From: an uncultured delta proteobacterium
GTDB taxonomy: Bacteria > Myxococcota_A > UBA9160 > UBA6930
NCBI GenBank assembly: GCA_963722885.1
Contig: CAVROS010000015.1
Coordinates: 125,282-189,281, forward strand
Direction: 5' to 3'
DNA: 64,000 bases
The notes below the pieces were generated by a model that did not search any database, was not told where the DNA came from, and was given only the letters and a program-made list of their open reading frames with translations. A program made the translations under genes and the position numbers. Positions 2,840 through 13,434 of the stretch are shown one piece after another (position 1 is the stretch's first letter; each line of letters begins with the position of its first letter).

Positions 2840-2997
2840 CAGCTACCCCCTTTGAAACGGAGAGATCGAGGTCACCTGCCCTCGCCGTAGTGGCCTTTCC
2901 ACGCTTGGACTAGAATGTCCACCGGATGGTAGCGATCGCGCTACCGGGCAGCTGCCCGTGTGGCGGCGTCGCCTGCGAGATCGAGGAGGTGAGCACC

Positions 2998-4345
2998 ATG
3001 GAGATGCAGGAAGTCATCGACAACATGTTCCTCCCGCTTCCCAGCGTCCCTCCGATCTTCATCACGAAGACCGAGGGAGTGTATCTTCACACCAGCTCCG
3101 GGCACAGGATCATCGACGCTTCGGGCGGACCCATGGCCGTCAGCATCGGATACGGTCGTCCGGAGATTGCCGAGGCGGCGGCTCGGGTGCTCCGAGAGGT
3201 CTCCTACGTGCTTCCCATCTTCGCCTCCGAAGCCAGGATCGAGCTGGTGAAACGGATCAAGAAGGTGCTGCCCGAAGAGCTGCGCAACGTCTACTTCTGC
3301 TCGGGCGGGTCGGAGGCGAACGAGGCGGCCATCAAGCTCGCCCGCCAGTACCAGGTGCTCGCCGGGCGGGAATCCAGATACAAGGTCATCTCCCGGAATC
3401 TCAGCTACCACGGCATGACCTTCCTGACCCTGTCGATCGGCGATGTGAAGATGAGACAGAGGGATTTCCTTCCCATGCTGTGGGAGAACCCTCGAGTCGA
3501 AGCCTGTTACTGCTATCGATGTCCCTTCGGAAAGGAGTATCCGGGCTGCGACATCGATTGCGCGCTGCAGCTGGAAGAACGGATCCTCGCCGAGGGCCCC
3601 GACACGGTGGTCGCATTCGTCGCCGAGCCGATCGTCGCCGCCGCCGGCGGGGCGCTGGTGCCTCCTCCCGAGTACTTCCCGATCGTCCGCGAGACCTGCG
3701 ACAAGTACGACGTCGTCTTCATCGCCGACGAAGTGGTGACCGGCTTCGGGCGGACGGGGCGGAACATGGGGATGGACCACTTCGGGGTCGTTCCCGACAT
3801 CGCCACCTTCGCCAAGGGCGTCAGCAGCGCCTACGCCCCTCTGGCGGGAATGGCGGTCAGCAACGAGCTCGTCGCGCTGTTCCAGGAGCGGGAGGCCGAG
3901 TTTCAACACCTCTACACGTTCTCGGGACATCCGCTCGCCTGCGCCATTGGCGCCGAGGTGATGCGGATCATCGAAGACGAGAACATGATCGCGCGGGCGG
4001 AGCAGACGGGGAAGTACCTGCAGGAGAGACTGCTCCAGCTGATGGATCTGCCGATGATCGGCGACATCCGGGGCAAGGGGATGCTCTGGGCGATCGAGTT
4101 CGTCGAGGACAAGGACACCAAGGCCCCGTTTCCGAAGGAGAAGAACGTCAAGATGGACACCATCGTCCAGTGCCTGCTTGAAGGGCGTCTTCTTGTATCC
4201 GGGGTACTACGAAGACGAGCAGGGGCGTGGCGACCAACTGATGATCGCGCCGCCGTTCATCATCACCGAGGAGCAGATCGACGAGTGTCTCGAGATCCTC
4301 CGCGGGGTCCTGACCGACTCGTATGACAGGTGGTGCGCCGCCTGA
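2998..4345 (+). CDS. class III (omega-type) aminotransferase, PLP-dependent; 1-nt frameshift near 4185 affects the last ~50 codons
   Basis: Class III aminotransferase blocks are present (SGGSEANEAAIKLAR, FIADEVVTGFGRTG, FAKG). A GAGGAGG RBS lies 8 nt upstream of the ATG at 2998. After 'gaagggcgtc' the conserved C-terminus (FLYPGYYEDEQGRGDQLMIAPPFIITEEQIDECL...) continues in the +1 frame and ends with TGA at 4343-4345. Confidence 0.8.
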
Positions 4346-4433: not shown

Positions 4434-5724
4434 GTGATGCGGGATAGGACAGGGGATCTGGTGCCGAGAGACGGGAAGATCTTCTACGGCTGGTGGATCG
4501 CTGCAACCTTCTTCGTCACCCTGTTCATGGCCGCATCCATTGGAGCCACGCATTCGGTCTTCTTCAAGTCCATCGTCGGAGAGTTCGGCTGGAGCCGCAC
4601 GTCGTTCTCGACCGTGCTGTCGGTCAACGCGGTGATCGGCGCGCTGCTGGCGCCGCTCTGGGGACGGTTGGTCGATCGGCATGGTCCGCGCGGTGTCGTG
4701 CCGGCGGGGGCGGCGATCGTGGGCCTGAGCATGGTGCTGCTCAGCAACATGCGAAGCATGCTGGAGGCCTACCTGCTCTACATTCTGCTGGCGTTCGGAG
4801 CCGGCGGACAGTCACTCGTCCCCATCAGCACCGCGCTCTCCCAGTGGTTCAAGCGCCGCAGGGGCCTGGCGATCGGAATCACCCTGGTGGGAGCTGGCGT
4901 GGGCGGCGTTGCACTGGCTCCCATGGCCAGCGTTCTGGATGGCGAGTTCGGTTGGCGCACCGGCTACCTGGTCTTCGGTATCGCGATATGGGTCGCCCTG
5001 ATCCCGCTGTTGCTCCTCGTCCTCCGACGCCGGCCCGAGGACATCGGCCTGCTGCCGGATGGGGATGAGCGACCGAGTGCGGCGGCGGATGCCGAGGAGC
5101 CGGCGGAAGCGCCGCCCGAGGCCGCCGGCCTGAGCCTGGGAGAGGCGGTACGGACGCCGGCCTTCTGGCTCCTCGCGCTCGGCTTCATGCTGCCGATGTT
5201 CGCGGGGAGGGCGATCATGATCCATCTCGTGCCCGTCATCACCGACGCGGGCATCTCACCGCAGAAAGCGGCGACGGCCTATGGCATGACCGTCGGGCCT
5301 GAGCATCGTCGGGCGGTTCGGCTTCGGATATGCCGCCGACAAGTTCAGCAAGCGGCACATCTTCGCGCTCTGCTACCTGATCCAGGCGGTGGGAATCTGC
5401 TTTCTGATCGGGCTCGAAAGCATGGGGCCGATCGTGCTGGTGGGATTCATCGTCGTCTTCGGGTGCAGCTATGGCGGCGGATTGTCGCTGGCTCCCCTGC
5501 TGATCGCCGAGAACTTCGGCATCGCGTCGATGGGGGTGATCTTCGGCGCACTGGGCATCGTGGCCATGGTAGGGGGGGCGCTCGGGCCGATCTTCGCCGG
5601 GGGCGTCTACGACGCCATGCAGAGCTACCACATGGCGTTCATCGTCTTTCTGGCCGTCCAACTCGTCGCCTCGATCGCAATCCTGAATTGTCGGCCGGCG
5701 GTGGCAACGAGTCCGGGCGACTGA
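4434..5724 (+). CDS. MFS transporter (oxalate/formate antiporter-like); 1-nt frameshift near 5298
   Basis: There are twelve hydrophobic segments. The N-terminal ~285 aa are in ORF 4434..5852 and the C-terminal half is in ORF 5389..5724. The join 'gtcgggcctgagc' reads ...GMTVG|LSIVGRFGFGYAADKFSKRHIF... if one C is removed. Confidence 0.75.
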
Positions 5725-5732
5725 GTGCGCCG

Positions 5733-6236
5733 TCAAGTATACCTGCGGACGAGGAAGAGGATCGTTCCCACCAGACACCAGAGCACCGCGGCATAGAAGA
5801 ACACCAGCTTGATGACCGCGGCCGTGCTCATGATCGGGACGAGAATGGGTGAATAGGTGTCGACGCGCAGGGAAATGATCGCCTGAATCCCGGTTTCGAC
5901 GATGTCGGCCAGCCAGGCGGGAAAGATGCACAGCGACAAGAGGATCCCGAGCTTGCGAGTCTTCTCGAAGGAGCGCCTTGCCACCAGTGTGCCCCAGGCA
6001 AATCCCACTGCAGCATATGCGGGCATGAACGGGAAGAGGTCGATGTATGCGCACATCAGCGATGCGTGGATGCCGCCATCGATGGCCTTCCACGCAGCCA
6101 GGATCGTCTGGTTCGCCTGATAGGTGAACACCGTCTGCTGGTCGACGATCGAGTAGCCGCTCGGGGCGAGGATCGCAAAGTACGGAAGGAAGAGGATGTA
6201 GGAGACGATCAGGAGGAGGATTCCCCCCGCCAGCAC
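5733..6236 (-). CDS. small polytopic membrane protein (4-5 TM), unknown family; possible flippase/accessory subunit of the adjacent glycosylation locus
   Basis: A 167-aa strongly hydrophobic ORF with a GTG start lies directly downstream of, and co-oriented with, the GT-C gene. Confidence 0.5.
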   Translation of the reverse strand: MLAGGILLLIVSYILFLPYFAILAPSGYSIVDQQTVFTYQANQTILAAWKAIDGGIHASLMCAYIDLFPFMPAYAAVGFAWGTLVARRSFEKTRKLGILLSLCIFPAWLADIVETGIQAIISLRVDTYSPILVPIMSTAAVIKLVFFYAAVLWCLVGTILFLVRRYT

Positions 6237-6380
6237 CAGGAGCAGCCATCTGTCTTCCGGCTTCGTCTCCAGTTGTCGAAGAATATGGGTGAGTTCCCAT
6301 GATGTCTCCTTGCGGTGCTTCCTCGGTGGGCAAGATTCGCTGATTTTGCTCCGAAAGGCTTCGATAGAAGTCGGGTGCGG

Positions 6381-8348
6381 TCAGTCTTCGTCCAACAAGT
6401 CCAGCGCGAAGCGCGCCTGCCAGAGGATCTGCGGGTCGTCGGTCACCCACGCGGCGGTCTCGAAGTCGCGGAACTCGAGATGCTTCTCGCGGGCGACCAT
6501 GTGGTTCCAGGGGTGGATGTCCCAGTAGACGGCGAGCGAGTGGATCAGGATGCTGAGGACGACCGTCGTGGCGAAAACGGTACGCCAGAGAGGGCGGCTC
6601 CGGATGCGGTCGATGGCGAATCCTCCGCAGAGAGCCAGGTAGGGCAGGGCGTCGGCCGAGTAGCGGGAGCCATAGGAGAGGACGGCGTGCCAGGCTCGCC
6701 AGGACGCGGTGAGGAGGAGGTCGCCCGTCAGACCGACCACGAGCGCCAGGGCCAGCATCCGGTAGCGGTGTTCCTGCTGCCGCAGCCCGACGCCCGCGCC
6801 GTAGATGCAGAAGAGCAGGAAGGGGGAGAAGATCAGCATGCCGCGGTTCGGGCTGACGAGCAGGCCGAGCAAGGCTCTGGGAAGCCCTGCGAGATCCCAA
6901 CCGCCTCCGAGGATCTTCTCGTAGCCTCCGAAGCCAGGGGTGCCGAAGTAGTGCATGTTGTAACCGAACAGGAAGAGAGCCGGTAGCAGTCCACCCAGCG
7001 CGTACCAGGCCCAGATCCAGATGCCGTTGCGATAGGCGATCCAGAGCAGGAGGGGGAGAGCCAGCGCGAGCGACTGCGGGCGTGCCGCGACCATCAGGCC
7101 GATCAGAAACCCGGCGAGGAGATGCCATGCCGGGCGGCGGGGTTCGCCGACGACGATGTAGAGAACTGCGGCCAGAGAGAACTGGGCCGGACCGTGTGCC
7201 CAGGTGTCCTGCGCGCTGATGTGGAAGGCGGCCGTACCCAGCGCGTAGGCGATCGTCATCCACGTCGCCCCGCGCCGCGAAGCGAAGCGCCGCAGGCAGA
7301 GGAAGATGAACACGGCGGACGCGGCCGTCAGCGTCGATGCCGTCAGCTTGGCCAGCATGTCGACACCCAGCGAGGGTACCTCGACTCCGAGCGCGACGGG
7401 CAGTGCGAAGAACGGGATGCAGAAGAGGGCGGTGCCGGGAGGCCACCGCGGGACCCAGTGTTCGTTCACCTGCATCAGGCCGATCCGGCGGTCGCTCTTC
7501 TTGTAGGTGTGAAGGTACTCGTCCACGTTCATGTCTCCACGGCGGAGCAGGCTGATGGCCATCTGCGGGGCCGGAATGCCGTCGATCATGCCGACCCGCG
7601 CCGAGTTGGAGTTGTAGACCAGCCAGATCAGCAGGAAGAGTACGACCGCACGCCGCGCGTCCAGGAAGCGAACCCGGGTGGCCTCGTCCAGCTCATCCCA
7701 GCGTTCGGCCCTCAGGTTTCGCCAACCGCACCAGACGCCTGCGACGAGCATGTAGATCAGCACCAGGCTCGCCATCGACCATTGTCCGAAGAGCACCTTG
7801 TCCGGCGAGATCAGGTTCCGGACGCAGAGGCCCGCAGCGATGGCCGCGACCGGGGCGACCGTCCAGCTCCACTGGCGGCGAGTCCAGACCGGGACGCGCA
7901 GCCGCCTCGTCACCAGCCAGCGGAGTGCGAGGAGCAGCCCCACCCCGACGGCGAGGGCGCCCGCCATTCCCAACAGGCTGCGCGCCTCGCGCAGGTAGGG
8001 GCGGCGGACGCGAAGGACGCTCAGAGTCGGGTACCAGCCGTGGAAGGTGACGTGGTTGCGGATCCGCAGGCGCGTGAAGACCCGGGGGATCGGGGCGGTG
8101 AGCTCGAAGGTGTTGTCGCCGGGACCCAGGTCGGCGAAGGCGACGGACAGTCGCAGTCTCTCCTTCGTCGACAGGTTGTCCGCGATCACCCTGCCGTTCA
8201 ACGAGACGGAGAGGTCGCGGACGGATTCGCGGACGGCCCACTCCGAAAAGTCGACTCTGAGGAGCCACTCGCTCCGACTGACCAGCATCTCCTCGGGTAC
8301 GGTCACCCGCAGACCGTTCTCGGTCGGATCGACGCGCATGCTCTCCAA
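6381..8348 (-). CDS. large polytopic membrane protein, putative GT-C-fold glycosyltransferase (ArnT/PMT-like, family unassigned)
   Basis: A 655-aa protein with a ~125-aa soluble N-terminal domain followed by more than 10 TM helices and loop motifs. Its context is ArnA-like and ArnC-like genes. No exact family signature was recognised. Confidence 0.5.
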   Translation of the reverse strand: MESMRVDPTENGLRVTVPEEMLVSRSEWLLRVDFSEWAVRESVRDLSVSLNGRVIADNLSTKERLRLSVAFADLGPGDNTFELTAPIPRVFTRLRIRNHVTFHGWYPTLSVLRVRRPYLREARSLLGMAGALAVGVGLLLALRWLVTRRLRVPVWTRRQWSWTVAPVAAIAAGLCVRNLISPDKVLFGQWSMASLVLIYMLVAGVWCGWRNLRAERWDELDEATRVRFLDARRAVVLFLLIWLVYNSNSARVGMIDGIPAPQMAISLLRRGDMNVDEYLHTYKKSDRRIGLMQVNEHWVPRWPPGTALFCIPFFALPVALGVEVPSLGVDMLAKLTASTLTAASAVFIFLCLRRFASRRGATWMTIAYALGTAAFHISAQDTWAHGPAQFSLAAVLYIVVGEPRRPAWHLLAGFLIGLMVAARPQSLALALPLLLWIAYRNGIWIWAWYALGGLLPALFLFGYNMHYFGTPGFGGYEKILGGGWDLAGLPRALLGLLVSPNRGMLIFSPFLLFCIYGAGVGLRQQEHRYRMLALALVVGLTGDLLLTASWRAWHAVLSYGSRYSADALPYLALCGGFAIDRIRSRPLWRTVFATTVVLSILIHSLAVYWDIHPWNHMVAREKHLEFRDFETAAWVTDDPQILWQARFALDLLDED

Positions 8349-9727
8349 GAGGGGGTCGTCGGCGTGGTAGCGCGGGTCGAGCTCGTTCTTGGTGACGTAC
8401 AGCTCGATTTCGCCGGCCGCCTGAGGATGTTTGACCAGGACGTTCCAGGAAGGCGCCCGCTGCAGGTCGAGGGTGCCGAAGAGCCACCACGCCGCGAATG
8501 CGGCGGGCAGGACGAGGAGGGCGATCCGGCCGGGCGGACGGCGCGCCGGCGGAGGTCTTGCCGTCGGCGTTCGTCATCACGGAGGAGGGACCTGCGCGCC
8601 GGGCGCGTCGGCCGGTCCGGCAGCATGTCGTGTTCGACCAGGAGGGCGAACAGTGCGTCGGCGACGATACGCAGGCCCCTGGGATTCAGGTGGCCCTGGT
8701 CCAGGAAATCCTTCGTGCGCACACCGGCCTGGTAGAGCGCGTCGCACAGTGAGAGCATCGGTACGTCCAGTTGCTCGGCCACCTCGGCCATGGCCTTCTG
8801 ATGCTCATCGGGCTTGAACCGTCCCTCGCGCTTTCGGGCGGTGCGGATCTGATCGCGGAAGCAGCCCTGAATCAAGACGACGCGGGCACCGCGGCCCGGG
8901 CTGATCTGGTTGGCCCGCGCCAGCTCGACCATCTCCCGCAGTCGGGCCTGGTAGCCGGCCACCGGCATCCGCTGCAGAGGTGCTCTTGTCTCCTGTCGCT
9001 CTTCGTCCACGCTGTCGTGTGCCCTCCGACGCAGCGTGTAGCTCAGCACTCGATAGGTGGCGCTGAAGTCCAACAGGTGTTCCCGGGCGAAGAGCCGGGC
9101 GTGCTCCGCGTCGGTCATGCCGTCCCAGACGACCGAGTCGTTCCACCCGAACCAGATCGTCACCACGTCGGGCCGGTACTTGAGCCCGCGCCGCTTCAGC
9201 ATCTCGAGCCCCTGATGGGCCGAGTAGCCCGAGCACGCCGCATTCATCACATGGATCTCCCGCCCCGGCCGCGCCTCGCGCAGGAGCTCGGCGAGCAGCG
9301 TCGGATAGGCCTCGTCGTAGCGGACGCCCCAGCCAAAGGTATTCGAGTCGCCCAGGCTGAGCACGCGGAAGTCGTTCGGCCCGCGCTCGACGGGGACCTC
9401 GGGATTGCGCATCCGGTCGCCGTTGGCGATGAAGCCGGTCATCTTGCCCTGATCCAGAGGCGCGGTGGTGTTGGCCTTCAGCTGCCAGAACAGCCACGGG
9501 TCCTTCTCGACGATGTCGGGAAAATTGACCATGCCGAACCGGATCGGCACCTCTTCCGCCTGGGCCTCGAGGCGATGCGGGACGATCGTGGACCAGATGA
9601 CCGCGCAGATCACTTCGATGGCCGAGAGACCCAGCAGCACGGCCACGGCGGCATACAGCACCGTCTTGCCGCGCGAGAACTGGATCTCCTCTGGCGGGGA
9701 GGCCGGTATCGGCGCTCCAGGGGTCAT
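8303..9727 (-). CDS. SGNH/GDSL hydrolase-family protein with N-terminal TM anchor; 3' ~100 codons of the ORF look non-coding (possible lost stop or frameshift)
   Basis: The GDS block is LSLGDSNTFGWG, with GWND and DGHLNPRG blocks downstream. A TM segment occupies aa 22-48. The tail after ...LVEHDML is low-complexity R/S/P-rich and overlaps the next gene. Confidence 0.7.
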   Translation of the reverse strand: MTPGAPIPASPPEEIQFSRGKTVLYAAVAVLLGLSAIEVICAVIWSTIVPHRLEAQAEEVPIRFGMVNFPDIVEKDPWLFWQLKANTTAPLDQGKMTGFIANGDRMRNPEVPVERGPNDFRVLSLGDSNTFGWGVRYDEAYPTLLAELLREARPGREIHVMNAACSGYSAHQGLEMLKRRGLKYRPDVVTIWFGWNDSVVWDGMTDAEHARLFAREHLLDFSATYRVLSYTLRRRAHDSVDEERQETRAPLQRMPVAGYQARLREMVELARANQISPGRGARVVLIQGCFRDQIRTARKREGRFKPDEHQKAMAEVAEQLDVPMLSLCDALYQAGVRTKDFLDQGHLNPRGLRIVADALFALLVEHDMLPDRPTRPARRSLLRDDERRRQDLRRRAVRPAGSPSSSCPPHSRRGGSSAPSTCSGRLPGTSWSNILRRPAKSSCTSPRTSSTRATTPTTPSWRACASIRPRTVCG

Positions 9728-9986
9728 CGTGGATACCTCGACACGTGGTGGCAGAGGAGTCTAGCCGGCTTTCCCACCGGCTCGCGTGGCGAGGGCTGGC
9801 GCCGAGCGCGGCCGGGCCGGCGTCCTCTTGGCCGGCTGGGGATATCCTGCTACACCCGCGAGCATTCTGGAGCGGTGTCCGGCGTGGTACAGCCTCCCCC
9901 GGGGGGCGAGATCTCGCAACCGCTTTCCAATCGCTTCGGGAGCCGGTGCATCGGCGCGGTGCACGCAGACTGAGGGGTATACGGAC

Positions 9987-11063
9987 ATGGCTGACCGGAA
10001 GGTGATCATTCTCGGTTGCGGTGGCTTCGTCGGAAGTCACCTGACGGAGCGCCTGCTCTCCGACGGACGTTTCGAAGTGCTCGGCTACGACGTGGCCGAC
10101 TCGAAATGCCAGCACCTGCTGGATCACCCGAACTTCCACTTCACCAAGGGCTACCTGGACGTCACCAACACCGAACAGGTGCTGGCACCGGTCCTCGACG
10201 GCGCCGAGGCCATCTATTCCCTGGCTGCCGTCTGCAACCCCGCCGAATACGTGAAGAACCCGGTGTTCACCATCAAATCGAACTTCATCCACGCCTACAA
10301 GCTGGTGGAGATCTGCACGGAGGCGAAGCTCTGGCTGATCCACACCTCTACCTGCGAGGTATACGGTCGGACCATCGCCAGCTACCTGCCCGACAACGAC
10401 TACTCGAATCTGGATCTCTTCGAGCAGCGCGAGGAAGAGACCCCGCTGGTGATGGGTCCCACCGTCAACCAGCGCTGGACCTACGCTGCGTCGAAGGCGC
10501 TCTTCGAGCGGTACATCTACGCGAACCACACGGAGAACGGGCTGCCGTTCACCATCATCCGCCCCTACAACTGGTTCGGGCCGCGCATGGATTACATCCC
10601 GGGCCGGGACGGCGAAGGCATCCCGCGGGTGCTGGCCTGCTTCATGCAGGCGCTCCTCGACGGCGAGCCCATGATGCTCGTGGACGGGGGCAAGGCCTAC
10701 CGGACCATCACCTACATCGAGGACGCGGTGGATGCCCTCTGCCGGATGCTCGAAGTGCCGACCAAGGCCAAGAACAACTTCTTCAATCTCGGCAACCGGG
10801 CCAACGAGGTGACCATGCACGACCTCGCCCACGAGATGCGCGACGTCTACGCCGAGATCACGGGCGACCCGGGATACAAGAGTCACCCGATCGAGGTGAT
10901 CTCCGGGGAGAAGTTCTACGGCCCGGGCTACGAGGACTGCGACCGCCGCGTGCCGGACGTCAGCCGTGCCGAGCGACTCCTGGGATGGAAGGCCAAGGTC
11001 CCGCTCCGCGAGACTCTCTTCCACACCATGAGCCACTTCCACGAGCTGTACGGGAAGAAGTAG
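9987..11063 (+). CDS. NAD-dependent UDP-glucuronate decarboxylase, ArnA C-terminal-domain-like (product a UDP-4-keto-pentose or UDP-pentose)
   Basis: It aligns by eye with E. coli ArnA residues ~315-660 (GCGGFVGSHLTERLL, HFTKGYLD, RPYNWFGPRMDY...MLVDGGKAYRTITYIEDAVDAL, EKFYGPGYEDCDRRVPDVSRAERLLGWKAK). The ATG at 9987 lies after a GAGGGG RBS. Confidence 0.85.
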   Translation: MADRKVIILGCGGFVGSHLTERLLSDGRFEVLGYDVADSKCQHLLDHPNFHFTKGYLDVTNTEQVLAPVLDGAEAIYSLAAVCNPAEYVKNPVFTIKSNFIHAYKLVEICTEAKLWLIHTSTCEVYGRTIASYLPDNDYSNLDLFEQREEETPLVMGPTVNQRWTYAASKALFERYIYANHTENGLPFTIIRPYNWFGPRMDYIPGRDGEGIPRVLACFMQALLDGEPMMLVDGGKAYRTITYIEDAVDALCRMLEVPTKAKNNFFNLGNRANEVTMHDLAHEMRDVYAEITGDPGYKSHPIEVISGEKFYGPGYEDCDRRVPDVSRAERLLGWKAKVPLRETLFHTMSHFHELYGKK

Positions 11064-11068
11064 AAGTC

Positions 11069-11806
11069 CTACGGATTGAGCCGCGGGCGGTAGGCGCCCA
11101 TGCGGTAGCGGATCATCACCCGCAGGCAGCGCAGCCCGTACCAGATCGGGTTCAGGTGGGACTCCTCGTCTGCGTAGCGCGTGGGAATCCCCTGCTCGTC
11201 CACCACCAGCCCGTGTGCACGGGCCGACGCGATCACCTCCAGGTCGAAATCGAAGTAGGTCGAGAGCTGGTCGAAGGGGATGGTGCTGGCGGCCCTTCGG
11301 CTGTAGAGCAGGAAGCCGGAGTGGTAGTCGGTCATCTCCAGGCCGAAGGTGCGGTTCTCCATCCAGGTCAGGATCTTCCCGGCCAGCCACTTGTATTTCG
11401 GCATGCCGCCCTCGAGGGCGGTGTCGTCCTTGTGGCGGCTGCCCTGGAGCACGTCCACCCCGTGCTCGGCCATGTACGCCACGAAGGACAGCACGCTCTC
11501 GGGCGGGTACTGGCCGTCGGCGTGGAGACAGACGATGTACTCCGCATCGGACTCCGCCACGCAGCGGCGCAGTCCTTCGCGCACGACGGTGCCGTAGCCC
11601 CGGTTGGGCTGGCGTGAGACCAGGCGGATCTTGGGCTGATCCCGGGACAGCTCCTCCACGACGGCGTTGGTGTCGTCCTGGCTTCCGTCGTTGATCACGA
11701 AGAGGCTCTCGATGGCATCCCAGAGCTCCGGGGAGATGCGCTCGATCACCCCGGGCAGGGTTCGGGCGGCGTTGTAGGAGGGGATGAAGATGGCCACGCG
11801 GCTCAC
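11069..11806 (-). CDS. GT2-family polyprenyl-phosphate glycosyltransferase (ArnC / Dpm1-like)
   Basis: GT2 motifs are present (VAIFIPSYNAARTL, LFVINDGSQDDT, RNRGYGTVVREG, HADGQY). The GTG start at 11806 lies 5 nt after a GGAGG RBS. The gene is convergent with the decarboxylase gene. Confidence 0.8.
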   Translation of the reverse strand: MSRVAIFIPSYNAARTLPGVIERISPELWDAIESLFVINDGSQDDTNAVVEELSRDQPKIRLVSRQPNRGYGTVVREGLRRCVAESDAEYIVCLHADGQYPPESVLSFVAYMAEHGVDVLQGSRHKDDTALEGGMPKYKWLAGKILTWMENRTFGLEMTDYHSGFLLYSRRAASTIPFDQLSTYFDFDLEVIASARAHGLVVDEQGIPTRYADEESHLNPIWYGLRCLRVMIRYRMGAYRPRLNP

Positions 11807-11997
11807 GAGAACCTCCGATCCGTAGCGCGTCTCCCCCGTGGAGGACGCGGGCCCTCGGGGACGTCCCTGGGCTCCATGGTCTGGCGCGATCGAGCTCGCA
11901 GATATAGGTATAGGGATAGCACTTCGCTGCCTACTCTCCGTTCCCGAAGCCAGGGCTCCGAGGCGACCAGGCGAGGGGCCGGCTCTTGAGCTGCTGA

Positions 11998-13434
11998 ATG
12001 GATCTGATGAAGCCCTCGATCGCAATCGTCGCGCTGCTGCTGGCCTGCTCGCCACGTGAGCTGGAGCCTCGCGAGCTCGGTGAGGCGACCCTCCTCTCGT
12101 GGGTGGGGCCCTCGGGCGCGGAGAGCCAGCTTCTCCTCGACGGCTCGGAGATCGGCCGCCTTCGAAGGGACGGAGAGCACCGGCGACTCTCCGCCGGGCC
12201 GGTCTCGGCGGCGCTCACGCGATCCGGTGCGCCGCTCGAGGCCGGGGCAGCGTATCCGCGCCGGGTAGTCGTCGAGGCACGTCTCGGTGACGACGGCAAA
12301 CCGCTTCGACAGGTGCTCACCTTGCTCGCCCCGCCGGCGCCTCTCTCGATCGAAGGGCTCGGACTCGAGGTCTCGACGGATATGCCGGGTCTCAATCGCG
12401 AGGAGCACGCCGAGCTGCGGGCGTGGCTCGGTACTCAGGGGCTGCCCGCCGACACCACGGCATTCGAGACCCTTCACCAGGCCGGCTCCGGGCGGGAGCT
12501 TCGGGTGTGGTACGAGATCTCCGGACGCCGCGTCGGCGGCACGCTCTCGCGGGGCGATGGTGGCCCGTGGCTGGCCCGGTTCGACTCGCTCTATCGGAGC
12601 GAGGGGGGCGGATTGAAGATCCATCACAAGCGGCCGGGTGAGAACGGCCGCTTCACCTACCACCGGCAGAGCCTCGAGCTGGCGGACATAGTCGAGTCCG
12701 CGTCGGGCGGCCTGCCCGCACTCGTGTCCCATCAGTGCGGCTGCTACGGCTACGCGATCGGTTCCGACTTCATGACGCTCGGGGATTTCCTCTACCACGT
12801 CGAGGCCGATTGGCTCGACGATCGGGTGGGCGCCGACTTCTTCATCGGTCTGGAGCGGCGCGAGGACTTTCCGTGGATCGGTTTCGGCGATCGGCGCCGG
12901 ATGCGGGACCTGGCGCGCCGGGTGAAGGCGTACCGGCTGACGGACGCGCGGGGTGAGCCCTTTGCCGAGATCGCACTGGATCTCCCACCGGCCCCGCCGC
13001 CCTCGGGGTTGGGTCCGGTTTCTTATCGCGTCGACGTCTGGCAATCCGGCGGTGAGCGCGCACCCCTCGCCCGCATCGATCACCGCGCCGCCGGGATCGA
13101 GCTGCGCATCTTTGGCGAGCGAGGGCATTGGCCCGAGTCGCTGGAGCGAATCGACACCCTGCTGGCGGCGATGCCCACACAGGTCGTACGCGGCGACGGC
13201 ATCCGCGACAGTCACCTGGCCGAGATCGAGCAGCTGATCGACTGGACTCGATTGATTCGCGAGCCGACGGAGGATCGGCTGGCCGACGTCGTCAGCGACA
13301 TAGACGCCCTGACTGCGCCTCGAAAGGTCCAGGCCCTGCTCGGATCCGATGCCGAGAGGTTTCAGGCCGAAGCGGCCGCGCGGCCGCCGGAGCCGATCGC
13401 ACCGGGCGCCTTGACCGGCGGCGGCCGACGATGA
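11998..13434 (+). CDS. hypothetical lipoprotein (478 aa)
   Basis: The signal peptide carries a lipobox (IVALLLAC-S). Composition is not arginine-dominated. No family was recognised. Confidence 0.5.
   Translation: MDLMKPSIAIVALLLACSPRELEPRELGEATLLSWVGPSGAESQLLLDGSEIGRLRRDGEHRRLSAGPVSAALTRSGAPLEAGAAYPRRVVVEARLGDDGKPLRQVLTLLAPPAPLSIEGLGLEVSTDMPGLNREEHAELRAWLGTQGLPADTTAFETLHQAGSGRELRVWYEISGRRVGGTLSRGDGGPWLARFDSLYRSEGGGLKIHHKRPGENGRFTYHRQSLELADIVESASGGLPALVSHQCGCYGYAIGSDFMTLGDFLYHVEADWLDDRVGADFFIGLERREDFPWIGFGDRRRMRDLARRVKAYRLTDARGEPFAEIALDLPPAPPPSGLGPVSYRVDVWQSGGERAPLARIDHRAAGIELRIFGERGHWPESLERIDTLLAAMPTQVVRGDGIRDSHLAEIEQLIDWTRLIREPTEDRLADVVSDIDALTAPRKVQALLGSDAERFQAEAAARPPEPIAPGALTGGGRR

What the first reader, a model, noticed from the sequence alone, without database searches (positions are those of the whole stretch)
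5733..11806. Compact arn-like lipid-linked pentose glycosylation locus lacking the amination branch
The locus has five adjacent genes.
- GT2, ArnC/Dpm1-like (11069..11806, minus strand).
- A stand-alone ArnA-C-terminal-like UDP-GlcA decarboxylase (9987..11063, plus strand).
- An SGNH hydrolase with TM anchor (8303..9727, minus strand).
- A 655-aa GT-C-type membrane protein (6381..8348, minus strand).
- A 167-aa 4-5-TM protein (5733..6236, minus strand).
This mirrors the logic of arnA-arnC-arnT-arnE/F (UDP-pentose, then polyprenyl-P-pentose, then a periplasmic GT-C transferase). No DegT-type aminotransferase, formyltransferase or deformylase is nearby.
The implied donor would be a polyprenyl-phosphate 4-keto-pentose, arabinose or xylose rather than Ara4N. 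The SGNH hydrolase could be an acyl-esterase or transferase acting on the product. The acceptor (lipid A, protein or glycan) is unknown.
Basis: partly seen in the sequence, partly recalled or inferred. Interest (0 to 1): 0.65.

Follow-up and report, generated by a model that had tools for sequence, protein, structure and literature searches.

The report
Lipid-linked apiose/xylose envelope glycosylation locus
This gene cluster probably makes the rare branched sugar apiose (or xylose), loads it onto a membrane lipid carrier and attaches it to an unknown target outside the inner membrane; this route for apiose was not found described in bacteria.

Summary
All five genes are real, but three gene models were wrong. 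Single-base indels, absent from a 95%-identical relative, truncate or extend them. Corrected sizes are 383 aa (SGNH), 732 aa (membrane protein) and 188 aa (small protein).

The general logic proposed is supported: UDP-pentose, then polyprenyl-P-pentose, then a periplasmic GT-C.
- The GT2 matches polyprenyl-phosphate sugar synthases best (PpgS, DPMS, ArnC, GtrB).

The "ArnA-like decarboxylase" label is wrong. The SDR is a UDP-apiose/UDP-xylose synthase:
- 332 bits to Arabidopsis UAXS against 210 to ArnA.
- 57-59% identity to GrUAS, XpUAS and YpUAS (Gr and Xp enzymes characterised) against 34-35% to ArnA and RsU4kpxs.
- UAXS signature cysteines present.

Conservation across relatives:
- Conserved core: UAS, GT2 and GT-C.
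- An orthologous GT2 abuts the UAS in 25 of 80 metagenomic loci, and in 5 of 5 close relatives with enough flank.
- Non-orthologous PMT_2-type GT-C proteins often sit beside them.
- The SGNH and 4-TM genes are clade-specific accessories.

Verdict: a new variant of three-component periplasmic glycosylation. The sugar, flippase and acceptor are untested.

The parts
11069..11806 (-). GT2 glycosyltransferase, 245 aa, with no TM helix. Predicted polyprenyl-phosphate pentosyl (apiosyl or xylosyl) synthase of the DPM1/PpgS/ArnC/GtrB type. Carries the motif HADGQYPPE in place of DADxQ.
   Evidence: - Pfam: PF00535, 6.9e-23.
- NCBIfam best hits (all below the curated cut-offs): PpgS 1.6e-17, AglJ, ArnC, PgfS and Dol-P-hexose transferase.
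- Family profile against PDB: DPMS 5mlz 2.1e-17, ArnC 1.9e-14, GtrB sll0501 3.3e-12.
- Orthologues (51-97% identical in 24 loci, 42% over a 95-aa end fragment in L073) lie next to the UAS in 25 of 80 metagenome loci.
9984..11063 (+). UDP-apiose/UDP-xylose synthase (bUAS-type extended SDR), 359 aa. It is convergent with the GT2 gene, and their stop codons are 5 nt apart.
   Evidence: - PDB: AtUAXS 6h0n E=4e-98 (332 bits), against ArnA 3.5e-61 (210 bits) and UXS ~1e-28.
- 46% identical to AtUAXS. C100, Y105, T139, C140, E141, R182, Y185, K189 and R341 are all conserved.
- 57-59% identical to GrUAS, XpUAS and YpUAS (Gr and Xp enzymes characterised), against 34-35% to ArnA and RsU4kpxs.
- The NJ tree places it in the UAS clade.
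- JGI names its homologues 'UDP-apiose/xylose synthase'.
9728..9983 (.). Divergent intergenic region of 256 bp between the UAS gene (+) and the SGNH/GT-C/4-TM gene string (-). Presumed bidirectional promoter region.
   Evidence: No sigma-70 consensus match was found, so the promoter role is inferred from the layout only.
8577..9727 (-). SGNH/GDSL hydrolase, 383 aa after correction. It has an N-terminal TM anchor, so the catalytic domain is predicted to be periplasmic. As the sequence stands, the ORF runs on to 8303 because of a 1-nt deletion at ~8616.
   Evidence: - Pfam: PF13472, 2.2e-22.
- Blocks GDS, GxND and DxxH are visible in the translation.
- Indel mapped; corrected model.
- Present in L001, L019 and L021 (72-94% identical). 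Absent from L002-L004 and L010.
- Non-orthologous SGNH genes also sit beside the UAS/GT-C genes in L017, and beside P0018.
6381..8580 (-). GT-C-fold membrane glycosyltransferase, 732 aa after correction (GTG start at 8580, overlapping the SGNH stop). Layout: TM1; a beta-rich periplasmic domain (aa ~45-175); three TM helices; then the GT-C core (aa ~292-732, window 6384-7706). As the sequence stands, the ORF is 6381-8348 because of a 1-nt insertion at 8550.
   Evidence: - Homologues are 715-732 aa. Indel mapped; corrected model.
- Core model: pLDDT 92.7, pTM 0.93.
- Foldseek: the top 19 hits are all GT-C, with ArnT best at 3.1e-5.
- 10 of 48 family members hit PMT_2, 5 hit PMT and 2 hit Glyco_transf_22.
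- Conserved first-loop residues: Y322, D333, D353 and G373-H374. Other conserved motifs: SPxRG and GxRY.
5733..6300 (-). Orphan 4-TM membrane protein, 188 aa after correction (ATG at 6300, AAGGAG ribosome-binding site). It is a candidate lipid-linked-sugar flippase or accessory subunit, but this is speculative. As the sequence stands, the ORF is 5733-6236 because of a 1-nt insertion at 6294.
   Evidence: - No Pfam or NCBIfam hit.
- Only 15 relatives among 1.84 billion representative proteins.
- Invariant intramembrane D87 and D132-x-x-E135.
- Present only in the clade that also has the SGNH gene (L001, L019, and the L021 end fragment).

Best explanation
The locus is a dedicated periplasmic glycosylation module of the three-component kind (Gtr/Arn/PpgS-Rv3779 logic), fed by a UDP-apiose/UDP-xylose synthase. 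Steps 1 to 5 below give the proposed mechanism.

1. In the cytoplasm, the SDR (UAS) converts UDP-glucuronate to UDP-apiofuranose plus UDP-xylose. The family assignment is shown by sequence; the product is inferred.
2. The adjacent TM-less GT2 transfers the pentose to polyprenyl phosphate (undecaprenyl-P) at the inner leaflet. Inferred from its best homologues and from the conserved pairing.
3. The lipid-linked pentose is flipped across the membrane. The flippase is unknown; the 188-aa 4-TM protein is one candidate.
4. The 732-aa GT-C enzyme has its conserved acidic first loop and its extra beta-rich N-terminal domain facing the periplasm. It transfers the pentose to an envelope acceptor. The fold is shown; the donor and acceptor are inferred or unknown.
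5. In this clade, a membrane-anchored periplasmic SGNH enzyme adds or removes an O-acyl group on the acceptor or the product. This step is speculative.

Whether the transferred sugar is apiose or xylose cannot be decided from sequence.
For: UAS identity:
- AtUAXS is the best PDB hit, 332 bits against 210 bits for ArnA.
- All catalytic and signature residues are conserved, including Cys100 and Cys140. These positions are Ala and Ser in ArnA and UXS (table in PMC12820599).
- 57-59% identity to GrUAS, XpUAS and YpUAS (Gr and Xp enzymes characterised), against 34-35% to ArnA and RsU4kpxs and 31% to human UXS.
- In the NJ tree it sits in the clade sister to Gr/Xp/Yp, with plant UAS basal and ArnA outside.

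GT2:
- Its top matches in NCBIfam and PDB are polyprenyl-phosphate sugar synthases: PpgS, AglJ, ArnC, PgfS, DPMS and GtrB.
- The alignments extend through the post-catalytic 'K..AGK...E(x)8DYHSGF' region that it shares with ArnC and DPMS.

GT-C:
- High-confidence model.
- Structural matches are exclusively GT-C enzymes.
- Family members hit PMT, PMT_2 and GT22.
- Topology by the positive-inside rule puts the conserved Asp-bearing first loop in the periplasm.

Synteny:
- The same locus is found in L001, L019 and L021. The core trio is found in L002-L004 and L010.
- An orthologous GT2 lies within -6 to 862 bp of the UAS in 25 of 80 loci. This includes 5 of 5 loci with UAS at least 60% identical and enough flank.
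- Independent, non-orthologous PMT_2-type membrane proteins lie next to UAS-GT2 in L014, L029, L034/L038/L054/L056, L067 and L081, and next to the UAS alone in L017 (no GT2 within 6 kb).
- A variable GT-C partnered with a conserved GT2 is the pattern seen in Gtr-type systems (PMC11127046).
Against: - No step has been shown biochemically.
- The GT2 scores are far below the NCBIfam equivalog cut-offs (63.7 bits against 370 for PpgS).
- The GT2 has no TM helix, and its DxD-like motif reads H-A-D.
- No recognisable flippase (GtrA, SMR, MATE or Wzx) is present.
- No ugd gene for UDP-GlcA supply lies in the 64-kb window.
- Most UAS homologues 50-60% identical, including the branch holding the characterised Gr, Xp and Yp enzymes, lack the GT2 neighbour (3 of 21 informative loci). 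In X. pisi, apiose is transferred directly from UDP-apiose by a GT90 Leloir enzyme (PMC6193724).
- In this window three of the five genes are frameshifted. I attribute this to assembly error, but in this particular strain they could be real lesions.
Confidence: 0.6

Rival explanations
1. The GT2 is an ordinary cytoplasmic Leloir transferase. It would add xylose or apiose from the UDP-sugar directly to a nascent Und-PP-linked glycan or another cytoplasmic acceptor, as XpXylT and XpApiT do in X. pisi. The GT-C protein would use a different donor, or act as a polymerase- or ligase-like enzyme in the same glycan pathway.
For: - In X. pisi, the only bacterial case studied, UDP-apiose and UDP-xylose are consumed by soluble Leloir GTs encoded next to the UAS (PMC6193724).
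- The GT2 here has no TM helices.
- Its scores against the PpgS and ArnC models are well below the curated cut-offs.
- One locus (L029) also has a Wzy_C-type protein nearby.
Against: - XpXylT belongs to a different GT2 subfamily (pfam13704/cd02511). The GT2 here matches PF00535.
- Its closest characterised relatives are all polyprenyl-P sugar synthases, including the TM-less PpgS.
- GT-C enzymes use lipid-phosphate-linked donors as a class, and a dedicated GT2 is encoded beside a GT-C in many independent UAS loci.
Confidence: 0.2
2. The SDR is an ArnA-C-terminal or U4kpxs-type decarboxylase that releases UDP-4-keto-pentose, possibly reduced to arabinose or xylose. The locus would then be an amine-less arn pathway that modifies lipid A.
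For: [quoted passage not shown] ArnA 210 bits in PDB).
- ArnT is among the best structural matches of the GT-C core.
- ArnC is among the best GT2 matches.
Against: - UAXS outscores ArnA by 120 bits.
- Identity to the bacterial UASs GrUAS, XpUAS and YpUAS is 57-59%, against 34-35% to ArnA and RsU4kpxs.
- The tree places the SDR inside the UAS clade.
- The PRK11908 score is below its own cut-off (256 against 294).
- ALG12 and Pmt4 match the GT-C core as well as ArnT does or better, so there is no specific ArnT affinity.
- There is no Pfam PMT/GT83 hit.
Confidence: 0.05
3. The pathway logic is correct, but the functional product of the SDR in this clade is only UDP-xylose. The lipid donor would then be polyprenyl-P-xylose and the system a periplasmic xylosylation system.
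For: - All characterised UASs make UDP-xylose alongside UDP-apiose (PMC5607165).
- UDP-apiose is chemically labile (own knowledge).
- In X. pisi, the GT2 encoded beside the UAS used UDP-xylose.
Against: - An ordinary UXS would serve to supply xylose alone. Yet the UAS-type enzyme is strictly conserved, with both ring-contraction-associated cysteines: C84 is invariant in 18 homologues, and C124 is present in the window enzyme.
- This rival differs from the best explanation only in which sugar is used.
Confidence: 0.25
4. The locus is decaying in this genome: the frameshifts in the SGNH, GT-C and 4-TM genes are real, so the cluster is non-functional here.
For: Three 1-nt indels interrupt three of the five genes.
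Against: - At least five further 1-nt indels break unrelated neighbouring genes within the same 14 kb, including the aminotransferase, the MFS gene and the MttB region. That pattern suggests sequencing or assembly error.
- Protein identity downstream of each shift stays at 91-96% to the intact L001 genes.
- Third-position GC stays high in the shifted frames.
Confidence: 0.07

Closest known systems
Bacterial UDP-apiose/UDP-xylose synthases (GrUAS, XpUAS, CeUAS; Smith & Bar-Peled 2017, PMC5607165) and the X. pisi apiose operon (UAS + GT90 XpApiT + GT2 XpXylT; PMC6193724)
   Same: - The same enzyme family supplies the nucleotide sugar: 57-59% identity over the 245-aa core, with the same catalytic residues.
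- A glycosyltransferase gene lies directly beside the UAS gene.
   Different: - The neighbouring GT2 is of the DPM1/PpgS type (PF00535), not the pfam13704 type.
- There is no GT90.
- A GT-C membrane enzyme is present, which implies a lipid-linked donor and periplasmic transfer.
- The 2017 paper reported no conserved operon around bUAS genes. Here a UAS-GT2 pair is conserved across 25 metagenomic loci.
Three-component periplasmic glycosylation systems. Examples: GtrA/GtrB/Gtr-type GT-C; PpgS (Rv3631) with Rv3779; ArnC/ArnT; and the pentofuranose systems PPPRS + MATE + GT136 (Kelly et al. 2024, PMC11127046)
   Same: A cytoplasmic enzyme loads a single sugar on polyprenyl-P, and a GT-C enzyme transfers it outside the cytoplasm. 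The GT2 is conserved while the GT-C partner varies. Some of the GT-C proteins carry an extra periplasmic, possibly carbohydrate-binding, domain.
   Different: - The module includes its own nucleotide-sugar synthase, of the apiose/xylose type.
- The known pentofuranose systems start from PRPP through a UbiA-like PPPRS, not from a UDP-sugar through a GT2.
- No GtrA, SMR or MATE flippase is recognisable.
- The GT-C belongs to no Pfam family.
- The GT2 lacks the TM anchor of GtrB and ArnC (as PpgS does).
The arn (pmrHFIJKLM) Ara4N lipid A modification pathway
   Same: It also starts from UDP-GlcA through an extended-SDR decarboxylase related to ArnA-C. A GT2 related to ArnC and a GT-C structurally similar to ArnT follow.
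   Different: - The SDR lies in the UAS clade, not the ArnA clade.
- There is no aminotransferase, formyltransferase or deformylase.
- There are no ArnE/F homologues.
- The GT-C is not GT83 by sequence.
- Nothing indicates that the acceptor is lipid A.
NCBIfam NF047440, LA_3751/LA_3752 family putative glycosyltransferase (Leptospira)
   Same: It is the only curated model that the 732-aa protein touches: E=6.1e-14 over aa 418-680.
   Different: The score of 51.7 bits is far below the 200-bit cut-off. That family is itself uncharacterised.

Membership tests
[quoted passage not shown] | Closer in sequence to characterised UAS enzymes than to ArnA, U4kpxs or UXS | tested here: met
   - PDB: AtUAXS 332 bits, ArnA 210 bits, UXS ~100 bits.
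- 57-59% identity to GrUAS, XpUAS and YpUAS, and 49% to AtUAS1. Against this, 34-35% to ArnA and RsU4kpxs, and 31% to human UXS.
- The NJ tree places it inside the UAS clade.
[quoted passage not shown] | The SDR catalytic triad T139/Y185/K189, plus E141, Y105, R182 and R341, plus the UAXS-specific Cys100 and Cys140 (AtUAXS numbering) | tested here: met
   All nine residues are conserved. According to PMC12820599, Cys100 and Cys140 are Ala and Ser in ArnA and UXS. Caveat: the functional GrUAS and XpUAS have Ser at position 140, and CeUAS has Ala at position 100 (S1 Fig). The cysteines are therefore indicative, not strictly required.
[quoted passage not shown] | Converts UDP-GlcA to UDP-apiose plus UDP-xylose | not testable with these tools
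   Needs an enzyme assay with NMR or LC-MS.
Polyprenyl-phosphate glycosyltransferases of GT2 (DPM1/GtrB/ArnC/PpgS type) | A GT-A catalytic domain whose closest characterised relatives are Pren-P sugar synthases | tested here: met
   - NCBIfam top hits: PpgS 1.6e-17, AglJ 3.4e-14, ArnC 6.5e-14, PgfS 8.8e-14 and Dol-P-hexose transferase.
- Family profile against PDB: DPMS 2.1e-17, ArnC 1.9e-14, GtrB 3.3e-12.
Polyprenyl-phosphate glycosyltransferases of GT2 (DPM1/GtrB/ArnC/PpgS type) | Reaches the curated cut-off of a specific equivalog model (PpgS, ArnC and others) | tested here: not met
   All scores are far below the cut-offs, for example 63.7 against 370 bits for PpgS and 51.6 against 529 bits for ArnC. 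It is therefore not an orthologue of any named enzyme.
Polyprenyl-phosphate glycosyltransferases of GT2 (DPM1/GtrB/ArnC/PpgS type) | Canonical D-A-D-x-Q metal and nucleotide motif, and C-terminal TM helices | tested here: inconclusive
   The motif reads H-A-D-G-Q-Y-P-P-E and is invariant in 15 orthologues. There are no TM helices. PpgS-type and eukaryotic DPM1-type members also lack them (own knowledge; the PpgS model is 226 positions long).
Polyprenyl-phosphate glycosyltransferases of GT2 (DPM1/GtrB/ArnC/PpgS type) | Forms a polyprenyl-P-sugar product | not testable with these tools
   Needs a membrane or lipid assay.
GT-C fold glycosyltransferases | The polytopic GT-C fold | tested here: met
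   - Core model: pLDDT 92.7, pTM 0.93.
- Foldseek: the top 19 hits are all GT-C.
GT-C fold glycosyltransferases | Conserved acidic residue(s) in the first extracytoplasmic loop after TM1 | tested here: met
   D333 is Asp in 27 of the 28 sequences that have a residue there. D353 is Asp in 40 of 48 and Asn in 6. Both lie in the loop after core TM1. Periplasmic placement follows from the predicted topology. A catalytic role is inferred only.
Specific GT-C families: ArnT/GT83, PMT/GT39, GT87, GT22 | Significant match to the family's sequence model | tested here: not met
   - No Pfam hit, even at E<=10, for the window protein or for P0001.
- No PDB sequence hit with the family profile.
- Only some remote relatives hit PMT_2, PMT or GT22, and weakly.
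arn (Ara4N) pathway | Presence of ArnB aminotransferase, ArnA-N formyltransferase, ArnD deformylase and ArnE/F | tested here: not met
   None of these domains occurs in the locus or in its conserved relatives. The nearby class-III aminotransferase is not conserved with the core.
SGNH/GDSL hydrolases | Match to the family model and presence of the catalytic blocks | tested here: met
   PF13472, 2.2e-22. The GDS, GxND and DxxH blocks are present. No specific subfamily could be assigned: the best PDB hits are generic esterases at E>=1e-5.
GtrA, ArnE/F or SMR lipid-sugar flippases (for the 188-aa protein) | Sequence match to a known flippase family | tested here: not met
   No Pfam or NCBIfam hit for the protein or for 12 relatives.

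The most novel reading that the evidence does not exclude
This locus and its relatives would define the first lipid-linked apiose pathway. A DPM1/PpgS-like GT2 makes polyprenyl-phosphate apiofuranose from the labile UDP-apiose. A previously unclassified GT-C family, with PMT_2-type analogues in other lineages, acts as periplasmic apiosyltransferase. Apiosylated envelope glycans would then be widespread among uncultured deltaproteobacteria-like and other environmental bacteria. The pathway would also be a UDP-sugar/GT2 counterpart of the PRPP-based pentofuranose three-component systems.
Probability: 0.33. Interest if true: 0.78.

Novelty: new variant of a known kind. Interest (0 to 1): 0.62.

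Why it matters
Apiose was long considered a plant-only sugar. In bacteria, only a few UAS enzymes and one apiosyltransferase (a GT90 in X. pisi) have been studied, and the 2017 study reported no conserved gene context.

The evidence here shows three things.
- UAS homologues are numerous in metagenomes: 1111 at E<=1e-60.
- One large clade is tightly coupled to a polyprenyl-phosphate-type GT2.
- That pair is repeatedly accompanied by GT-C enzymes.

If the prediction holds:
- It gives the first lipid-linked apiose (or UDP-derived xylose) donor.
- It defines a new GT-C family for CAZy.
- It offers a testable route to find bacterial apiosylated or xylosylated envelope structures.
- It provides enzymes for glycoengineering with a rare branched pentose.

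It would also extend the three-component paradigm to a module that carries its own nucleotide-sugar synthase.

Tried and rejected
- Direct Pfam and NCBIfam assignment of the 655/732-aa protein failed. There were no hits even at E<=10, and only a sub-threshold LA_3751/2 hit.
- A family-profile search of PDB sequences for the same protein found nothing.
- The first full-length AlphaFold model, built from 15 sequences, was poor (pLDDT 60) and gave only marginal Foldseek E-values. I replaced it with a core-only model built on a 48-sequence alignment.
- I considered an SGNH-GT-C fusion protein, because the SGNH ORF runs into the GT-C ORF. I rejected it: homologues are separate genes of 384 and 732 aa, and the window has two compensable 1-nt indels.
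- I tested whether the neighbouring MFS transporter is a conserved partner and possible flippase. The MFS genes of the window and of L014 are not homologous, so I rejected this.
- I tested whether the L014 458-aa membrane protein is an orthologue of the window GT-C. It is not (BLASTP and hhalign), but it does hit PMT_2 weakly.
- I looked for the small protein in known families through an exhaustive HMMER search followed by a Pfam scan of its relatives. Nothing was found.
- I looked for ugd in the window with an E. coli Ugd sequence written from memory. There was no hit.
- The promoter and terminator scan gave nothing useful.
- Savino et al. 2019 (PMC6914363) is not held in the library, so the residue roles are cited second-hand from PMC12820599.

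Full report
**1. Observation**

The window has about 67% GC, so spurious ORFs abound.

Pfam results:
- 11069-11806(-): GT2 domain.
- 9786/9984-11063(+): extended-SDR epimerase/dehydratase domain.
- 8303-9727(-): GDSL_2 domain.
- The 655-aa and 167-aa ORFs: nothing.

The C-terminal ~80 residues of the SGNH ORF look like out-of-frame sequence. The reading frame of the 655-aa ORF stays open and keeps coding-like GC3 for 225 nt upstream of its first possible start codon.

Homologues of the membrane protein are mostly 715-732 aa and begin MVTNAGGKTSPARRPPGRIALL.... The closest relative is contig CAVXZE010000021.1, from a MAG labelled 'uncultured delta proteobacterium'. It is 95.3% identical in DNA over 14 kb. 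The window differs from it by many single-base indels. Three of them fall in this locus.
- Insertion at 8550, in codon ~10 of the membrane gene.
- Deletion at 8616, which removes the SGNH stop.
- Insertion at 6294, in codon 3 of the small gene.

Removing them restores the following genes:
- A 732-aa membrane protein (8580->6381).
- A 383-aa SGNH protein whose stop overlaps the next gene's start (GTGATGA).
- A 188-aa small protein with an AAGGAG ribosome-binding site.

Unrelated neighbours (aminotransferase, MFS, MttB region) are broken in the same way. Protein identity after each shift stays above 90%. I therefore read these indels as assembly errors, not decay.

**2. The SDR is a UDP-apiose/UDP-xylose synthase, not an ArnA-type decarboxylase**

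- Against PDB sequences, the best hit is Arabidopsis UAXS (6h0n, E=4e-98, 332 bits). It is well ahead of ArnA (3.5e-61, 210 bits) and UXS (~1e-28).
- Identity to AtUAXS is 46%, within the 43-49% range reported for the bacterial UAS homologues studied in 2017, three of which (Ce, Gr, Xp) were shown to be active (PMC5607165).
- C100, Y105, T139, C140, E141, R182, Y185, K189 and R341 are all conserved.
- The two cysteines are Ala and Ser in ArnA and UXS (table in PMC12820599).
- I transcribed the alignment in S1 Fig of PMC5607165. Over a 245-residue core, the window enzyme is 57-59% identical to GrUAS, XpUAS and YpUAS, 49% to AtUAS1 and 40% to CeUAS. It is only 34-35% identical to ArnA and RsU4kpxs, and 31% to human UXS.
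- In a crude NJ tree it lies in a clade sister to the Gr/Xp/Yp clade. Plant UAS is basal and ArnA/RsU4kpxs lie outside.
- JGI's own annotation names the homologues 'UDP-apiose/xylose synthase'.

One caveat applies. Functional GrUAS and XpUAS have Ser at position 140, and CeUAS has Ala at position 100. The cysteines are therefore supportive, not diagnostic.

**3. The GT2**

It has 245 aa and no TM segment.
- NCBIfam's best hits are all polyprenyl- or dolichyl-phosphate sugar synthases: PpgS (1.6e-17), AglJ, ArnC, PgfS and the haloarchaeal Dol-P-hexose transferase. All are far below the equivalog cut-offs.
- A profile of 15 orthologues hits DPMS (2.1e-17), ArnC (1.9e-14) and GtrB sll0501 (3.3e-12) as the best single-domain PDB matches.
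- The alignments run past the catalytic core, into the segment that ArnC and DPMS use at the membrane interface.
- The DxD-type motif reads HADGQYPPE and is invariant among the orthologues.

**4. The membrane protein has a GT-C fold**

- The full-length model was weak (pLDDT 60). Even so, it showed a TM helix, a beta-rich domain (aa 45-175), three more helices and then a helical core. Its best Foldseek hits were already STT3, AftA and ArnT.
- A profile search recovered 73 relatives, some carrying PMT, PMT_2 or Glyco_transf_22 hits.
- With a 48-sequence alignment, the core (window 6384-7706) was modelled at pLDDT 92.7 and pTM 0.93.
- The first loop after core TM1 carries the conserved residues Y322, D333, D353 and G373-H374. 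Later loops carry SPxRG and GxRY motifs.
- By the positive-inside rule, this loop and the N-terminal beta-rich domain face the periplasm.
- The protein matches no Pfam model and no PDB sequence. It has the GT-C fold but is not a member of GT83, GT39, GT87 or GT22.

**5. Synteny**

- L001, L019 and L021 repeat the whole arrangement: GT2, UAS, SGNH, GT-C and the 4-TM gene.
- L002-L004 and L010 (GT-C 74% identical) keep only GT2, UAS and GT-C, inside an unrelated neighbourhood. The core is therefore three genes.
- A metagenome scan with a UAS alignment returned 80 loci. An orthologous GT2 (51-97% identical, apart from one 42% end fragment in L073) lies within -6 to 862 bp of the UAS in 25 of them.
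- Among loci with UAS at least 60% identical and at least 1.5 kb of flank on both sides, 5 of 5 have this GT2. Among those 50-60% identical, only 3 of 21 do.
- UAS and GT2 identities fall together (for example 66% and 64% in L014), as expected for co-inheritance.
- Large polytopic proteins lie next to the pair. They are not orthologues of the window GT-C, but they hit PMT_2:

| Locus | Size of membrane protein | PMT_2 E-value |
|---|---|---|
| L081 | 652 aa | 3.2e-15 |
| L067 | 915 aa | 6.6e-10 |
| L067 | 533 aa | 1.1e-6 |
| L054 | 642 aa | 8.7e-7 |
| L017 | 649 aa | 4.9e-6 |
| L029 | 525 aa | 2.4e-5 |
| L014 | 458 aa | 3.3e-4 |
| L034 | 633 aa | 6.5e-4 |

  The L054-type protein is shared by L034, L038 and L056. 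L017 has the UAS but no GT2 within 6 kb.
- L020 and L021 have a paralogue of the window GT-C (32% identical) just upstream of the GT2.
- Remote homologues of the GT-C in other contexts also sit beside small GT2 genes (L007, and L012 in Mesorhizobium).
- A conserved donor-making GT2 with a variable GT-C is the signature of three-component periplasmic glycosylation systems (PMC11127046).

**6. Accessory genes**

- The SGNH protein has an N-terminal anchor and intact catalytic blocks, but no assignable subfamily.
- Non-orthologous SGNH genes also accompany the UAS and GT-C in L017, and accompany the GT-C homologue P0018. This hints at a recurring functional link, such as O-acyl handling of the glycan, but nothing more can be said.
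- The 188-aa protein has four TM helices and invariant intramembrane D87 and D132xxE135. It has only 15 relatives among 1.84 billion representative proteins and no known family. A flippase role is a guess.
- The neighbouring MFS gene is not a conserved partner.
- No ugd gene lies in the window.

**7. Mechanism and status of each step**

- Shown by sequence or structure prediction: UAS-clade membership; similarity of the GT2 to Pren-P synthases; the GT-C fold; cytoplasmic versus periplasmic placement; and conserved linkage.
- Unknown: which pentose is used, the flippase, the acceptor and the SGNH substrate.

**8. Comparison and novelty**

The literature available here describes the following:
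- A Leloir GT90 apiosyltransferase in X. pisi (PMC6193724).
- Pentofuranose three-component systems that start from PRPP, not from a UDP-sugar (PMC11127046).

Full-text searches for a polyprenyl-phosphate-linked apiose donor found nothing; the only undP-Xyl mentions are in the two PRPP-system papers, PMC11127046 and its commentary, PMC11194591. I therefore rate the locus as a new variant of a known kind, of moderate to high interest. All functional claims remain untested.

Noticed in passing
window 1215, 1783, 2571, 4178, 5294, 6294, 8550, 8616 (and others up to 16650): Relative to the 95.3%-identical contig L001, the window carries many isolated 1-nt indels, mostly insertions. They break otherwise conserved genes: the class-III aminotransferase (2926-4326), the MFS gene (4434-5852), the MttB-family region (~1471-2839) and three genes of this locus. 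This looks like uncorrected assembly error, so ORF-based annotation of the window is unreliable.
   Followed up: partly
window 11998-13434 (+): A 478-aa protein with a lipoprotein-like signal (…ALLLAC…) and no Pfam or NCBIfam hit. It is divergent from the GT2 gene. It is conserved (92% identical) in L001 but absent from the second clade, so it is probably not part of the module.
   Followed up: partly
L067:2558-5305 (-): A 915-aa PMT_2-type GT-C protein fused to a C-terminal pectate-lyase-like domain (PF09492, 1.2e-23). It lies ~1.7 kb from a UAS-GT2 pair, on the far side of a 533-aa PMT_2 protein. It might be an acceptor-binding domain for an acidic polysaccharide.
   Followed up: no
L017:768-2537 (-) and L022:2905-4734 (-): A ~600-aa protein with a weak DUF5060 match recurs next to the UAS, together with an SGNH gene, in two loci that lack the window-type GT-C. 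The two copies are 42% identical to each other. Its function is unknown.
   Followed up: no
L021:172-2358 (-) and L021:5709-8159 (-); L020:2402-4588 (-): Some relatives carry a second, paralogous GT-C, 32% identical to the window's and with the same length and N-terminal extension. It sits directly upstream of the GT2. This suggests two different acceptors or two successive transfers from the same lipid donor.
   Followed up: partly
L012 (Mesorhizobium calcicola NZ_JBHUGY010000035.1) 5901-12371: A remote homologue of the GT-C (27% identical) lies between a GDP-mannose 4,6-dehydratase gene and a UbiA prenyltransferase plus GT2 gene pair. This may be an analogous module for a 6-deoxy sugar.
   Followed up: partly
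window 5733-6300 (-) and alignment A5: The small 4-TM protein family is extremely rare, with 15 representatives in 1.84 billion proteins. It has invariant membrane-embedded acidic residues (D87 and a DxxEN motif), which suggests a transport or catalytic role rather than a passive subunit.
   Followed up: partly
S1 Fig of PMC5607165: The functional bacterial enzymes GrUAS and XpUAS, and the homologue YpUAS, have Ser at the position of AtUAXS Cys140. CeUAS has Ala at the position of Cys100. The plant 'signature' cysteines are therefore not strictly required for UDP-apiose formation. The window enzyme has both.
   Followed up: yes
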